Origin: Ophelia neglecta | Taxonomy: Eukaryota | Reading direction: 5' to 3' | DNA: 64,000 nt | NCBI GenBank assembly: GCA_965285935.1 | Contig: OZ260663.1 | Span: forward strand, 35,092,001 to 35,156,000 | Shown here: positions 3,001-63,000 of the stretch, one piece after another | Layout: each line of letters opens with the position of its first letter | How positions within the stretch are numbered: the stretch's first letter is position 1 | Position numbers: made by a program

Positions 3001-6000
3001 GATCCCAGTTAGATATAGATCTTCTATTATTCGTTTTAATGTTCAACAGGCGAAATCCTTCGGATTTATAGGAGTTCTTTACCCATGATAGACCAATTAA
3101 TTTCGTGTATATATGTCCCCCGTTGCTGTTATACCGATTTCCACAACTGTTAAACTAAGGTGTTTTAAACCACAATCACCTTAGTCCATTTACCAATTTT
3201 CTAATTAGTATCATTAACGTCGCTAAGTTCTTGTCGTCCTGACATAGATTGACATTGTGCATCACTGTCGAATTCATGATAAAACGGCGGCAGATCGTTT
3301 AAAACGTCTATTTCATGTCTCACACACCGAGGACTTTTGTATGCATGGTCTTTACACTTCAGGTTCCCATTGGGGCACTTGAGCAACAAATGTTGACCAA
3401 ACTCTGGTTCCCTGTTGGGTGATTTATTTGTTTTTACTACTCCTAATGCTTGGTCGGCGTTGTCGACAGGTGTTCTGCGCAGCTGCTGTAGCTCCCAGAC
3501 ATGAGCGTAGCCATACTCACTTCCGCACACTATCCGGGCTTTGTCGGAACCGGGATCTTCTCTACATGGCCCCAGCACTACAGCACCATGGGGCCGTCTA
3601 TGTAACCTATGAATAAGACAGAAAGCATCAAATCGCGGTCTAAATACAAACAATGCAAGTCGTATACTCATTATGAACAATCCAATGTTTATCTTTTGTA
3701 ATGAAGGTTTGAATAATTTACAATCTACATATTTGGTTAATCATCACCTTTTCTGGCAAGTGAGAGCCAGGCCAAGAAGTAAGATGCCAAGACCTATACC
3801 CAGCGCAATCCCTATAACTACGGCTACAATCAGGCCTGTAACACATAAGACATGTCAAAATGAACTCTAAATAAAAAGGGATATTAAGTGTTGTTTATTA
3901 TTTAATAAATTGTGTTGCAACCTGTTTGACATATCTACTCATCTTAACCAGCATGGTTAATTTTTACATAGCATATTTTCTTCTTTCATCTAGACAGTAA
4001 AGGATCACTCAGTGTGCCCTTGCTATCATAAAACCAGCAAAATGCATATGACTTGATATAATGATACACCTGCTGTATATTACCAAATGATAAACTTTTC
4101 CTAACAAACATTTGGACACTGACACTTGGCATGAGCAACGAAGTACACCATTGAGAAATACACACCTAATGGAAGGGTGTTATTAGTCGGAGTTCTTCCA
4201 TGGCTTTGGGCTGTTACTGAAAAAGAACGTGTTATGAAACGTCGCTGACAGTATCAATTATATTCATAATATACTTTACACATTAGTCAGCACGAAAAAA
4301 TGCCGAACAAATTATATCTACTTGTTTTAATGATTATTTAAATTGGTCTTGAGGTGTGTTTTTTTTATAAAGGCAGTGCTCAGGGAGAATTTGAAGAAGT
4401 TTGGCTAAGTTTCGCAAGAAAGGAACATCAGATTTGTAGAACAAATATGAATTTAAAGACGCGTTTGTCTTCCTTGTGGCTAGTATTCGGTAAATCTTAT
4501 AAATGAATATAAACAGTTAGGAACTGTAGGAGTTTTGTGACACCTGTCTCTCGATATTATGGAAGGAAATTCAAACACCATAAACCAATATTACCCCGGA
4601 TTAATACAAAACCAACAATTGTGCCTAAATTAATATGGTGATCACCGCGTGTAGCTATAGTCGCCTCAAAATGTATACGGGCGAAACGTTCATTTCGTCC
4701 ATACAATTGATTATGAACTCGAAATTCTATGAACCTCATGAAAAGTCTAGTGTGCACACCAATCATGGAACGGCAAATGGTAGTTAGCAGATGAACTGAA
4801 CATAAACAGCAACTACATGGAATTCAATAAAGATTGAATTATGGAGTAAAGTTAGCTTACAGGCAGTATCAGAATATAGAAGGGAGGAACTGTCGCAATG
4901 TTTTTAGTGGATGCTCAGCAGAGAAGAGTCGGTTCTGCTCGATTGGGATATCTAAGAGAGGCACGTCTTTCTGGCCCGTTATAGTAGATCTTAAGCGTTT
5001 CGTCTAAATTGGTTCTGTGAGCGATGCCCTCTGAGCAGTATCAGCTCATACACGATCAAACCAGTGTTAGTTGGAGGCGCGGAAGCTAGCGTACGGCCAA
5101 TGAATGGCTGTGCTTCTAATGATAATAAATTGGCAGATGGCAAACAACATAAATATTTATATCCCAACTTGAGGCTTTCGAAAACTCTGACTTGTTCTCT
5201 GCGAGCCCTGTACCATGCTGAGGGGCGCTAATGTTTAACTTCATGTGTAGTCAAGGCACGTTAAAGTTCACGTTAAGCGTGAGGGTTGGCCGCTATTTCG
5301 CCCACAAGGCGAAATACATTCTTCCTGAAATGAAGTAGATTTATTCTTTCTTGTACAATCCGCTTCAACGCAATTCCTTCTAGGAGGAAAAGCTGGACAA
5401 TGACGACACAGAGCATCTGGCCCTTTTACATATCAGCAGGTTGGTTTTCATTGGAATAATCTTTCATATTGGCGATGCCCATCAGGGGCATCACAATACA
5501 CATTTGACCTATCATGACCCAGGTATGACACCTGAAACTCAAAACAGCATAATGACGACGGGGTTTCTAAATTGGTGTCAATTCTCACAGAGTCACTCTT
5601 CCACCTGTTTGTTTCATTCAAGATCGAAGATGCGAACCCTCTGCCAGATTATGTACTCAAAACAACTCCAGTGGGCCCTAAACGCTGCGACTTGAAATGT
5701 CGTTGAAACTCCAAACAACATCACACCAGAAGTGTGTGAACACCAGCTGGCCGTCAGGCAGAGAATATGTTATAAGCTGTGCATGTTTGGCTTCAAGGGT
5801 TTCAAATATTGCATCTATTATCATATCTGACTTTCTGCGTTCCTTGAAAGTTCGAACCTGGTGTTATGGCAAACCACCCTTTGCATTTATGACTTGTGAA
5901 ATCAGGAGCTGTCTGTCCTAACATATACCTGTAGTATATTGTTTTTGATGCGATAGGAGAGTCGAAAACTTTCATTAAATATTTGGTTTTGACGCCCTTA

Positions 6001-60000: not shown

Positions 60001-63000
60001 CTGGTGTTTGATCGAAATAAGAAAATCGAAAGTGGTACCTTTCCAGTCAATATTTTCTGTTTAATCTACGACGAGGCTACACGGCGGTCTTATATTGGAT
60101 AATCTAATGTGCTATCCTAATGACAAACGGACAGTCTGTATAAATGGACATTTTATACAATTTTGTTCTGTAAACATACCAATGCTAAAGGTACATCAAC
60201 TATTACAGGCGTGATATTTGCTTGATATGACAGTCGGTCTAGTGTCTTTTAGAACTCATTCAATGGTGCTATTGATCCATGCTTTTTAAATTAATAATGA
60301 CATCAGAGATGCATTCTTCATTTCTATGGCAGGAGATTTCAATGTGAACATTATCATCGAGGGTACTTTAACTATCGGTTATCAATGATTGTCACGAGAG
60401 AATGTCTGAATAGTTTGCCAAAAAAAATTAATGTGCGGAATGGCAGTAAATTAAGGACAATTTGTAATAACAAACCTCATTTTGCCTAATGCATTCCCTG
60501 GTAAAACGCGTGTCAAGAAAATATGATGTTTTCGGCTTGATTGCTCTAACGTCAGAGTGACTACGTTTTATGATGAGCTGGGCTGGATGTTAATTCTGCT
60601 ACACGTTCTCCTCGTGCGTGCGTACATGTAGTACTTGTAAACTTAGTTATCGGACACATTACCCCAAATAAGCCGTCTAGAAACGACATCTAGGCAGCGT
60701 GGACATTAACATCGAGGCCCCCGTTTATATAAAATTCGTTAATTGTACAAGTTGAAGTTTTAAGTGTCAAATTATCGAGGTTTTGTAATATAATCGTATC
60801 GTGCATACACGGTTTACAACGCCGGACTTGCGTGATGAATATAGCCGGATAGTACGAGTGACTGTCAGTATTGGAGAGCGGTTCATATTTCCAAAGGCAC
60901 TTACCATTATATTTGAGAGCAAAATACACAGGCTCCTTCTCCATTTTGAAGCTCATGATATGCACTTCAATCTTATTAGTCTCAGAGATGTAAACGCTAC
61001 GCTCCCTGATCATACTGCCGCATATTGTAATATCCGAAGCCATGCCGCGTTCCTTTATTTTGGCGTATACGTGACACATGTTTCCGGTCTCGGCAAATCT
61101 CGAGGCGACGCCGAAGTCCAGTAGGGTTATGTTGATTCGCTGTCCGGGTGGGAGCGCGATGACCCAGGGACACCTGTGGGAGCCGTAACCCAGCTCCTCT
61201 GTGACCACGCTGGCCAGGTAGCCATTGGGTCCCGTCGCAGATAACCCTCCAGGGTAGCTACAGCTCCGCCCTCCACCGTACTGAACTAAAAACAAATCAA
61301 AATACGAAAAACATGACTAAACTGGGACAATTTATATTGATTAATATACTGGCGAATTTGGGTAGAAATTCAATAAATAAACAAAATTTGAAATGAGCAA
61401 GAGTTAGTGGAGAATCTTTCGAAATAGCAATGTCATGGCCAATAAATACATAATGTAACTAAACGTTCCATTGAATATTGCACTGTACAGCTCAGTGAGT
61501 GAAGACATAAGGACAGAACGCTGTTTATAAATACATGTATGTTTTGTAGAAGGGTGGTATCTAGCAGACCTATTGCCATGAGCACCACGTTGGCACTAGC
61601 GCCAATAAAACTTCTTATTTGAGTTGTAAGCCCTATTACAGTATAATAGTGTCCAAGTAAAACACAAAATATGTGCTTACCATTTTTACAGGCATATTCA
61701 GCCTCTAGGTAGGAGAACATATCCTTCGGACATGGCTGTAACTTGTGTAGCTCATCGTCAGGTATATTTATTAAACAGCCATGCCTCCCTGAACACTTCC
61801 TGTCCACGTGCGAAAGAACATCGGCGTAACAACCCACGTGATCGTCTGACGTCACACATTTTCCTCTGTTCATGCGACCATATTTGGCAGACTGCATTAT
61901 CATGATTTGATCCCTGTCACACGTGGCGTTGAATGACTTAGGGAAACAGTACTCTTGCACACCTGAAACACCGTAAATTTTATTCTAGGCAGCAGGTCAT
62001 AGTGAGCACAAAAATGTTCTACAAAAATATCAAGTTGGCCTACAACAGAGGCCATGCATTATCAAGTCTTTAACACCCGTTTTCGGCCGTGGCTGACACC
62101 TGCACGTGTAATTGTGTTCTGGGTAATTTAATTGACCGACAAGGTTTGTCAGGCCATCATCTGATGTGATTGATATCTGATCCTGAAGCAACCATTCAGT
62201 GGTTGTGCGGCTTATCTAGTTTTCTTTGAGTGTAGATAATACCTAAATATTCCAGGGTGATTTGTATATACATGTATGTGAAAGTGAAAGGTTATGACCT
62301 ATAACATACTTTTGTCCCTTAATTATCTTTTTTGCTTATATATTTATTCTTCACCAAAATATTATACAATTGTACTCTATAGGCCTATATTAATATTTCT
62401 GATAACTTATGTAAATGTAAGGTCGTCCAGTGCTTACGACATCTGCTAATTCCTGACGTTCGTGTATAACTATACCTACTATTTTTTTTTGTTTTATTTT
62501 ATTGTCCTCATCAAGACTCCTTATTATGAAAAATGCAACGTTGGGATATATGATTAAATAGTACAAAAGAAAACGTCCATGTGTTTTCAGGATGTAATTT
62601 ATATCATGAATAGGTTACACCTTTTTGATGGCAGCCTTAACAATGTGACACACCTGCCTCTCAGGAAAATAATGATGTCATTTGTCACCGACTTCCATAT
62701 TACGGTAAGAAATATCATTAAATCCAAAATATGCTTGAGCCTCCTCCAGGGAACTGAGCAGTAACATAAATATTTGTGGTGAAGGACCGCACTAATGCTA
62801 AAATGCATTCCTAAGTGACCTCCTATTTAGTCATAGAGATCCAAGCTGCACGACTACTGTGAACTCACGTTCAATATTTAAATGGCCTTACTGTCATCTG
62901 AAGGCCATTTATGTCAGTAAGGCAATTTCTATTTGTTATTTAGTCATTATTTGGGTGTCACTTAGGCCATTTTTACACTACTTGGTGTAACTTAACAAAT

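What the first reader, a model, noticed from the sequence alone, without database searches (positions are those of the whole stretch)
3201..61962. Cluster of three SUEL-CUB-sushi-TM receptors with conserved tyrosine-motif tails
Seen: three intact paralogues with the same exon series, phase-1 domain exons, an 88-nt TM exon and a conserved cytoplasmic YGY(A/T)HV motif. Established: SUEL/RBL domains occur in latrophilins, EVA-1 and rhamnose-binding lectins, and CUB and CCP modules occur together in complement proteases and recognition proteins. Inference: I recognise no named, characterised family with this single SUEL + CUB + short CCP + TM architecture. It looks like a lineage-expanded invertebrate surface-receptor family for immune recognition, adhesion or guidance.
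Basis: partly seen in the sequence, partly recalled or inferred. Interest (0 to 1): 0.75.

Follow-up and report, generated by a model that had tools for sequence, protein, structure and literature searches.

The report
Three SUEL-CUB membrane receptor genes
The window holds three old, well-preserved copies of a gene for a single-pass cell-surface receptor built from a lectin-like, a CUB and a small sushi-like module, a kind of protein that appears to have been described once before, in oyster blood cells.

Summary
Three paralogues (A, minus, 3201-10414; B, plus, 26071-31167; C, minus, 57840-61962) share one exon series: SUEL, CUB, a 4-Cys sushi-like module, an 88-nt TM exon and a tail exon. 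All 9 domain exons are phase 1-1, with AG/GT borders.

Pfam finds SUEL_Lectin above its cut-off in 3 of 3 and CUB in 3 of 3 (1 above cut-off). It finds no Sushi. The sushi-like call rests on cysteine spacing, a confident small beta model and language-model neighbours.

The copies are old and constrained: A-B dS is about 1.7 and dN/dS about 0.15. The tail motif YGY(A/T)HV is the only tyrosine motif shared by all three. No signal-peptide exon was found for C.

The SUEL domains lack two of the four monosaccharide-contact residues defined for latrophilin RBL. The TM helix has an invariant GxxxGxxxG.

The claim of no characterised family is weakened. An oyster lectin with Gal_Lectin and CUB domains (CgGal-CUB, 2024) is reported to mediate haemocyte phagocytosis, but I saw only its title and one citing sentence. 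Orthology and family size stayed unchecked. The spliced protein was never joined or searched.

The parts
10339..10414 (-). Gene A, candidate first coding exon. ATG at 10414 or 10381, hydrophobic signal-peptide-like stretch ending ...SLA, phase-1 donor CAG|GTGAGT.
   Evidence: Prediction only, with no similarity support.
9275..9553 (-). Gene A SUEL/RBL exon (279 nt, phase 1-1)
   Evidence: Pfam SUEL_Lectin 36 bits, cut-off 31.4. Borders.
7955..8341 (-). Gene A CUB exon (387 nt, phase 1-1)
   Evidence: Pfam CUB 17.1 bits, below the cut-off of 21.4. 61% identical to the B exon.
6942..7088 (-). Gene A 4-Cys sushi-like exon (147 nt, phase 1-1)
   Evidence: AF2 model pLDDT 88.9. No Pfam hit.
3748..3835 (-). 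Gene A TM exon (88 nt, phase 1 to 2), GxxxGxxxG
3201..3606 (-). Gene A cytoplasmic tail exon with stop. YGYAHV lies at 3498-3515.
26071..26113 (+). Gene B, candidate first coding exon (14 hydrophobic codons, donor CAG|GTAAGG, phase 1)
   Evidence: Prediction only.
27532..27810 (+). Gene B SUEL/RBL exon (279 nt, phase 1-1)
   Evidence: Pfam SUEL_Lectin 34.2 bits..
28068..28457 (+). Gene B CUB exon (390 nt, phase 1-1)
   Evidence: Pfam CUB 28.9 bits, above the cut-off of 21.4, E 1.5e-6.
29427..29579 (+). Gene B sushi-like exon (153 nt, phase 1-1)
   Evidence: In the ESM Atlas, 27 of 30 neighbours fall in Sushi-bearing sets.
30436..30523 (+). Gene B TM exon (88 nt)
30756..31167 (+). Gene B tail exon with stop. 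YGYAHV lies at 30844-30861.
61681..61962 (-). Gene C SUEL/RBL exon (282 nt, phase 1-1). The upstream first exon was not found in the window.
   Evidence: Pfam SUEL_Lectin 40.8 bits..
60905..61285 (-). Gene C CUB exon (381 nt, phase 1-1)
   Evidence: Pfam CUB 20.1 bits, just below the cut-off..
59676..59834 (-). Gene C sushi-like exon (159 nt, phase 1-1)
58618..58705 (-). Gene C TM exon (88 nt)
57840..58230 (-). Gene C tail exon with stop. YGYTHV lies at 58098-58115.

Best explanation
The window carries three functional paralogous genes for type I single-pass membrane glycoproteins. The domain order is signal peptide (predicted for A and B), one SUEL/RBL lectin-like domain, one CUB domain, one short 4-Cys sushi-like module, a TM helix with a glycine zipper, and a tail of about 130 residues with no known domain.

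Shown here: the domain order, the exon structure, purifying selection, and the conserved N-glycosylation sequons and cysteines.

Inferred: they sit on the cell surface as recognition receptors of the same kind as the oyster Gal_Lectin-CUB lectin CgGal-CUB, which is reported to promote haemocyte phagocytosis. The ectodomain captures a ligand. The TM GxxxGxxxG promotes self-association or pairing with a partner. The one tail element kept in all three, an acidic residue plus G-Y-(A/T)-H-V (a YxxPhi motif), couples the receptor to internalisation (adaptor binding) or, after tyrosine phosphorylation, to SH2-type signalling.

The SUEL domains lack the Glu and Lys that monosaccharide binding needs in latrophilin RBL. 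The ligand is therefore more likely a protein or a complex glycan epitope than free rhamnose or galactose.
For: - **Domains:** Pfam finds SUEL_Lectin above cut-off in 3 of 3 exons and CUB at E<=0.01 in 3 of 3, with 1 above cut-off. A profile of the SUEL exons hits latrophilin RBL structures at 1.7e-5.
- **Conserved features:** invariant cysteines number 8 in SUEL, 4 in CUB and 4 in the sushi-like module. Conserved N-x-S/T sequons number 1, 1 and 2 in the same modules.
- **Sushi-like module:** the AF2 model has pLDDT 88.9 with four strands. 12 of 44 listed weak Foldseek rows are chains I know to contain CCP modules. 27 of 30 Atlas neighbours fall in Sushi-bearing sets, recorded as Mollusca.
- **TM exon:** it is hydrophobic, with invariant G8, G12 and G16, and is followed by basic residues.
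- **Selection:** A-B dN/dS per exon is 0.09-0.25 at dS of about 1-2.3, and A-B DNA similarity is confined to exons in 4 of 4 HSPs.
- **Tail:** Y[AT]HV is the only motif of those scanned that all three share.
- **Sugar contacts:** Glu42, Tyr63, the Gly117 backbone N and Lys120 contact the sugar in mouse Lat-1 RBL. E42D/Q and K120R abolish binding (PMC2430599, passages). The window's domains have W/W/F after the first Cys and A/A/S at the Lys position (alignment).
- **Published parallel:** CgGal-CUB, seen as a title and as one citing sentence (expression rose after Vibrio splendidus infection, along with phagocytic activity).
Against: - There is no expression or splice evidence of any kind.
- No signal-peptide exon was found for C.
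- Pfam gives no Sushi hit at E<=10, the PDB profile search gives nothing for that exon, and Foldseek gives 0 matches at E<=0.001.
- The CUB model is poor (pLDDT 56.1) and its Foldseek matches are generic beta-sandwiches, of which 7 of 43 rows are CUB structures.
- Two of three CUB exons score below Pfam's cut-off.
- The link to CgGal-CUB rests on a title and one secondary sentence. No sequence was compared, and the organism of the window is unknown.
- A YxxPhi match is short and common. No ITIM, ITAM or NPxY is present.
- The Atlas found nothing for the tail.
- If CgGal-CUB truly binds simple sugars, as I recall its abstract stating, the argument from missing sugar-contact residues would be weakened.
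Confidence: 0.5

Rival explanations
1. These are neuronal or developmental adhesion and guidance co-receptors. Their substituted RBL domain binds a protein cue, as proposed for EVA-1 (Slit co-receptor) and for latrophilin RBL domains, rather than serving an immune function.
For: The best structural relatives of the SUEL exons are latrophilin RBL domains. The sugar-contact Glu and Lys are substituted, as in the EVA-1 and PKD1L2 RBL domains, for which non-carbohydrate ligands were argued (PMC2430599). CUB and CCP modules are common in neuronal surface proteins (my knowledge).
Against: There is one RBL domain, not the two of EVA-1. No Pfam family is found in the tail. The only published Gal_Lectin-CUB protein I found is tied to haemocyte phagocytosis. 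Three divergent tandem paralogues fit immune-type diversification better, though that is inference.
Confidence: 0.2
2. These are auxiliary subunits or scaffolds. They would be CUB-bearing single-pass proteins that associate through the TM glycine zipper with a channel or another receptor and tune it, like the CUB-TM auxiliary proteins of neurotransmitter receptors. On this reading they would not be primary ligand receptors.
For: GxxxGxxxG is invariant in the TM exon. The CUB domain lies next to the membrane-proximal module. The tail has no catalytic or known signalling domain.
Against: The comparison with known auxiliary proteins comes from memory only. None of them carries a SUEL domain as far as I know. 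No partner gene is evident in the window.
Confidence: 0.1
3. These are classical sugar-binding pattern-recognition lectins. The SUEL domain binds rhamnose- or galactose-type glycans on microbes directly, and the rest of the protein only anchors it.
For: The SUEL fold, 8 Cys and the YGR motif are kept. RBLs bind L-rhamnose and D-galactose and bacterial LPS (PMC10817417 abstract and passages). As I recall its abstract, recombinant CgGal-CUB was reported to bind sugars and microbes; I did not see that text here.
Against: The DPC motif reads QPC and the KYL motif reads AYM/AYM/SYL. The Glu after the first Cys and the loop-2 Lys are absent in 3 of 3 copies, and even conservative changes at these two positions abolished binding in mouse Lat-1 RBL.
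Confidence: 0.15
4. The exons are not real co-spliced genes, being decayed copies or a chance arrangement.
For: There is no transcript evidence. The first exon of C was not found.
Against: All 15 exons have open frames, AG/GT borders and compatible phases. dN/dS is well below 1 at near-saturated dS, and similarity is limited to exons.
Confidence: 0.03

Closest known systems
CgGal-CUB of the Pacific oyster (Yang et al., Dev Comp Immunol 2024;159:105222)
   Same: It has one Gal_Lectin (= SUEL/RBL) domain and one CUB domain in one protein of a mollusc, as its title states. It is linked to phagocytosis and is induced by Vibrio splendidus (one citing sentence).
   Different: Its sequence, its TM region and any sushi-like module were not seen here; that it has a TM region is my recollection only. 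Whether the window's genes are its orthologues, its paralogues or unrelated is untested.
EVA-1 / EVA1C (C21orf63)
   Same: It is a single-pass membrane protein with an RBL ectodomain whose sugar-contact residues are substituted (PMC2430599).
   Different: EVA-1 has two RBL domains and no CUB or sushi-like module. The window's genes have one RBL. No similarity was found in the tail (no Pfam family).
Latrophilins (ADGRL, LAT-1)
   Same: They are the closest solved relatives of the SUEL exon (E 1.7e-5 to 6e-4). The RBL sits at the N-terminus of a receptor ectodomain.
   Different: Latrophilins are 7TM adhesion GPCRs with olfactomedin, HRM and GAIN domains (my knowledge). Here there is one 88-nt TM exon and a stop about 130 codons later.
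Soluble rhamnose-binding lectins (SUEL, CSL, GYL-R)
   Same: They share the domain fold, the eight cysteines and the YGR motif.
   Different: Those lectins are secreted, often have tandem CRDs, and keep the DPC and KYL motifs. Here the domain is membrane-anchored and single, with QPC and (A/S)Y(M/L).
CUB-CCP units of MASP, C1r and C1s
   Same: A CUB domain is directly followed by a CCP-type module. MASP-1/MAP-1 CCP structures are among the weak full-length Foldseek matches.
   Different: There is no EGF domain, second CUB or protease domain in the gene models. The match is not significant (E about 1).

Membership tests
SUEL/RBL lectin domain (Pfam PF02140) | Profile match above the curated cut-off | tested here: met
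   36, 34.2 and 40.8 bits against a cut-off of 31.4, in 3 of 3 exons. Latrophilin RBL structures hit at 1.7e-5.
SUEL/RBL lectin domain | Eight conserved cysteines (four disulfides) (PMC10817417; PMC2430599) | tested here: met
   There are eight invariant Cys columns in alignment A1. A has a ninth.
Sugar-binding RBL lectins | YGR motif | tested here: met
   RYGRM or KYGRM in 3 of 3
Sugar-binding RBL lectins | DPC and KYL motifs, i.e. the loop-2 Lys (Lys120 of mouse Lat-1) | tested here: not met
   The motifs read QPC and AYM/AYM/SYL in 3 of 3. The Lys position aligns to A or S in the HMMER alignments. K120R abolishes binding.
Sugar-binding RBL lectins | Glu at +1 of the first cysteine (Glu42 of mouse Lat-1) | tested here: not met
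   The residue after the first invariant Cys is W, W and F. The Cys equivalence is inferred from its spacing to the second Cys (8-9 residues) and from the alignment.
CUB domain (PF00431) | Profile match above the curated cut-off | tested here: inconclusive
   B scores 28.9 bits, above the cut-off of 21.4. A (17.1) and C (20.1) fall below it. The three exons are clearly homologous to one another. Four Cys are invariant. The AF2 model is weak.
CUB domain | Ca2+-binding acidic residues of ligand-binding CUB domains | not tested
   No residue-level alignment to a reference CUB was available from the tools.
CCP / Sushi (PF00084) | Profile match | tested here: not met
   0 of 3 exons hit at E<=10. 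The PDB profile search gave no CCP.
CCP / Sushi | Four Cys with a Trp between Cys3 and Cys4, and a small beta fold | tested here: inconclusive
   The pattern is C-x21-C-x10-C-x11-C with an invariant W; the consensus it is compared with is recalled. AF2 gives pLDDT 88.9 and 4 strands. Foldseek gives 0 hits at E<=0.001, and 12 of 44 listed rows are CCP-containing chains. 27 of 30 Atlas neighbours fall in Sushi-bearing sets, at scores 0.91-0.92.
CgGal-CUB-type membrane lectins | Gal_Lectin plus CUB in one protein | tested here: met
   The family definition is taken from the paper's title only.
CgGal-CUB-type membrane lectins | Sequence orthology to CgGal-CUB | not testable with these tools
EVA-1 / EVA1C | Two extracellular RBL domains (PMC2430599) | tested here: not met
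   There is one SUEL exon per gene, and no further copy in the window.
Latrophilin / adhesion GPCR | GAIN domain and seven TM helices | tested here: not met
   There is a single 28-codon TM exon followed by a tail exon ending in a stop. The definition is from my knowledge.
ITIM / ITAM immune receptors | [ILVS]xYxx[ILV], or two YxxL/I motifs 6-12 residues apart | tested here: not met
   The regex scan of the three tails found none. Only the YxxPhi motif Y[AT]HV is shared.

The most novel reading that the evidence does not exclude
These genes define a mollusc receptor family in which a latrophilin-like RBL domain that has lost its sugar-binding residues works with CUB and a minimal CCP module to recognise a protein ligand. 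The receptors pair through a TM glycine zipper and signal through a single acidic-G-Y-x-x-V tyrosine motif. As I recall, that motif resembles the hemITAM (acidic-G-Y-x-x-L) of vertebrate C-type lectin phagocytic receptors. This would be an independently evolved single-tyrosine phagocytic signalling module in invertebrates.
Probability: 0.12. Interest if true: 0.6.

Novelty: new member of a known kind. Interest (0 to 1): 0.3.

Why it matters
If the reading is right, the window gives exact gene models for a small tandem family of surface receptors that combine a latrophilin-type RBL domain with CUB and a minimal sushi-like module. It also gives three testable features:

- The sugar-contact residues are missing.
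- The TM helix has an invariant glycine zipper.
- One conserved tyrosine motif is present in the tail.

These features would help explain how an oyster-type Gal_Lectin-CUB receptor couples recognition to phagocytosis. Beyond that, this is an ordinary lineage-specific receptor cluster and does not bear on a long-standing open question.

Tried and rejected
- **Sushi-like and tail exons, sequence searches.** Pfam at E<=10 found nothing in 6 of 6. A PDB profile search of the sushi-like exon gave only chance-level hits.
- **Foldseek.** Neither exon model gave a match at E<=0.001.
- **ESM Atlas on the B tail.** No usable hit.
- **Upstream DNA comparison for shared first exons.** One 25-nt match only.
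- **Fourth copy.** The two marginal tblastn hits (54999-55079 and 35125-35211) are broken by stops and were rejected.
- **Other ORFs.** Pfam on ten other long ORFs gave 0 of 10 with a family. PDB searches of two ORFs from the 50.6-54 kb region found nothing below E 0.89.
- **RNA genes.** tRNA and Rfam scans gave 0 matches.
- **Literature.** looked for a SUEL/Gal_Lectin plus CUB (plus sushi) membrane family. Only CgGal-CUB turned up, and one search was swamped by 'Cuba'.
- **Tail motifs.** ITIM, ITAM and NPxY readings were rejected.
- **Not used.**
  - Complex prediction: no binding claim is made, and the TM peptide of one exon is under 30 residues.
  - The search for related loci and the DNA search on genome contigs: that collection is bacterial and archaeal only.
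  - search_dna_similar: it covers phages, plasmids and E. coli only.

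
Full report
**What is there.** The window has no N and is about 39% G+C. Stop-to-stop ORFs and pairwise BLASTP of ORF pieces show three sets of five colinear coding pieces. Set A lies on the minus strand at 3201-9553, set B on the plus strand at 27532-31167, and set C on the minus strand at 57840-61962.

Reading the DNA at each border fixed the exon lengths for A/B/C:

| Exon | A | B | C |
|---|---|---|---|
| SUEL | 279 | 279 | 282 |
| CUB | 387 | 390 | 381 |
| Sushi-like | 147 | 153 | 159 |
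| TM | 88 | 88 | 88 |
| Tail (with stop) | 406 | 412 | 391 |

All 9 domain exons are phase 1-1. The TM exon runs from phase 1 to phase 2, and the tail exon starts in phase 2. 15 of 15 acceptors end in AG after a pyrimidine-rich tract, and 12 of 12 donors start with GT.

tblastn of the 15 exon peptides against the whole window finds exactly three copies of each ectodomain exon. The two best extra hits (E 0.011 and 0.049) are interrupted by stops.

**First exons.** A scan for an ATG, a hydrophobic stretch and a phase-1 GT donor gave one strong candidate upstream of B: 26071-26113, with a perfect donor context. It gave a parallel candidate upstream of A, starting at 10414 or 10381 and ending at 10339. 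Both encode short hydrophobic peptides ending in -LA.

No convincing candidate exists in the 2 kb that remain upstream of C, so C's 5' end may lie beyond the window. These first exons are predictions without similarity support: upstream DNA of A and B shares only one 25-nt match.

**Domains, exon by exon.** The joined, spliced protein was not built or searched, so no whole-protein architecture scan was run.

- **SUEL.** Pfam gives SUEL_Lectin above its cut-off in 3 of 3 exons. A profile of the three exons hits latrophilin RBL structures: C. elegans LAT-1 at 1.7e-5, ADGRL2, ADGRL3 and ADGRL1 at about 3e-4 to 8e-3, and the salmon lectin CSL2 at 4e-3.
- **CUB.** Pfam gives CUB at E<=0.01 in 3 of 3 exons. 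B scores 28.9 bits, above the cut-off, while A (17.1) and C (20.1) fall below it. The CUB profile gives only weak hits to cubilin, PCPE-1 and TSG-6 (E 0.11-0.87). The AF2 model of the CUB exon is all-beta but poor (pLDDT 56.1). Its Foldseek matches are generic beta-sandwiches: none reaches E<=0.001, and 7 of 43 listed rows are CUB structures.
- **Sushi-like module.** Pfam gives nothing even at E<=10, and the PDB profile search gives nothing. The exon has four invariant Cys spaced 21, 10 and 11 residues apart and an invariant Trp between the last two.
  - The AF2 model is confident (pLDDT 88.9, four strands).
  - Foldseek finds no match at E<=0.001. Among the 44 listed weak rows, 12 are chains that I know to contain CCP modules (MASP-1/MAP-1, CR1, IL-15R alpha, E-selectin, CD55, PAPP-A, C6).
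  - The ESM Atlas puts 27 of its 30 neighbours in sets that carry PF00084, with scores of 0.91-0.92 and taxa recorded as Mollusca. The three best neighbours (0.94-0.97) carry no family.
  - I therefore call it 'sushi-like', not a proven CCP.
- **Tails.** They have no Pfam family and no Atlas neighbour.

**Signs of a real, constrained surface protein.**
- Eight Cys are invariant in the SUEL exon, and four each in the CUB and sushi-like exons.
- N-x-S/T sequons sit at homologous positions in all three copies: one in SUEL, one in CUB and two in the sushi-like exon.
- The TM exon encodes a hydrophobic stretch followed by basic residues, which fits type I topology.
- A and B are 86%, 62%, 69%, 61% and 42% identical in the SUEL, CUB, sushi-like, TM and tail exons. 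C is 54%, 42%, 42%, 50% and 23% identical to the first row of each alignment (A, or B for CUB).
- Between A and B, synonymous sites are close to saturation (dS 0.95-2.3) while dN/dS per exon is 0.09, 0.11, 0.12 and 0.25. The ratio from summed counts is 0.15. Against C, dS is saturated in all five exons against A and in two of five (SUEL, CUB) against B.
- A-B DNA similarity is confined to exons (4 of 4 HSPs). A-C shares one 33-nt exon match, and B-C shares none.

These are old duplicates kept under purifying selection.

**Features that bear on mechanism.**

1. *The SUEL domain.* RBL domains are defined by the YGR, DPC and KYL motifs and eight Cys (PMC10817417 and PMC4277298, passages). In mouse latrophilin-1 RBL the sugar is held by Glu42 (the residue after the first Cys), Tyr63, the backbone N of Gly117, and Lys120. 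E42D, E42Q and K120R abolish rhamnose and galactose binding. The authors argue that receptor-borne RBL domains with such substitutions bind non-carbohydrate ligands (PMC2430599, passages).
   - The window's three domains keep YGR and the eight Cys.
   - They read W/W/F after the first Cys, QPC instead of DPC, and A/A/S at the Lys position (HMMER alignments).
   - Canonical monosaccharide binding is therefore unlikely.
2. *The TM exon.* G8, G12 and G16 are invariant, forming a GxxxGxxxG pattern. From my knowledge, this pattern favours helix-helix association.
3. *The tail.* A regex scan finds no ITIM, ITAM or NPxY. The only motif shared by all three is Y-[AT]-H-V, a YxxPhi motif preceded by G and an acidic residue (EYGYAHV, DYGYAHV, DSGYGYTHV). 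It lies 31-41 residues into the tail exon. The resemblance to the vertebrate hemITAM is from memory and untested.

**Comparison with what is known.** Eight looked for the domain combination.

[quoted passage not shown] I saw its title in two reference lists. I also saw one citing sentence saying that CgGal-CUB expression rose after Vibrio splendidus infection, together with phagocytic activity (PMC12729292). The paper itself is not held. My recollection that it also reports a TM region and sugar binding is unverified.

Since Gal_Lectin is the SUEL domain, and a domain scan misses the sushi-like module (as Pfam did here), that protein may well belong to this family.

The genes are not members of three neighbouring families:
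- not EVA-1, which has two RBL domains;
- not latrophilins, because there is one TM exon followed by a stop;
- not soluble sugar-binding RBLs, because two defining motifs are not met.

**What stayed unchecked.**
- Any comparison with CgGal-CUB.
- The source organism. The only hint is the 'Mollusca' label on Atlas neighbours.
- Transcripts and splice junctions.
- The whole-protein domain scan, because the joined step was left out.
- Supplementary files of the papers, which were closed and not requested. The supplement of PMC9334734 lists Aplysia lectin genes and might name relatives.

**Verdict.** The best reading is a small tandem family of type I surface receptors of the Gal_Lectin-CUB kind. 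They probably act in recognition coupled to uptake, with a ligand other than a simple sugar. Novelty: a new member of a known kind. Interest is moderate to low.

Noticed in passing
window 44441-46115: A 44-bp minisatellite of about 37 copies (83% matches). It coincides with a strong local GC skew (+0.33) and lies between genes B and C.
   Followed up: no
window 13729-13946: A 47-bp tandem repeat of 4.6 copies (90% matches), in the 15.6-kb head-to-head spacer between genes A and B.
   Followed up: no
window 50638-53983 (+): Several plus-strand open stretches (50685-51038, 52309-52602, 53729-53983) read like exons of another gene between B and C. None of the three, nor the 52709-53359 ORF, has a Pfam family, and the first two have no PDB hit below E 0.89. 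From memory they recall a 'pathogen-related protein' type of sequence; this is untested.
   Followed up: partly
window 9551 (gene A SUEL exon, first whole codon): Gene A has a ninth cysteine at the very start of its SUEL exon that B and C lack. It could be an unpaired Cys.
   Followed up: no
window 3204-3212, 31156-31164, 57873-57881: An invariant D-T-N aligns in all three tails. In A and B it forms the last three residues before the stop. In C it is followed by 10 more residues. Its meaning is unknown, and it is not a PDZ-type ending as far as I recall.
   Followed up: no
window 11089-11468 (-) and 29827-30281 (+): Proline-rich, low-complexity open frames (PPPPP runs, and a His-Thr/TG-type repeat) appear in the spacer upstream of A and in B's intron between the sushi-like and TM exons. 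They are probably simple-sequence DNA.
   Followed up: no
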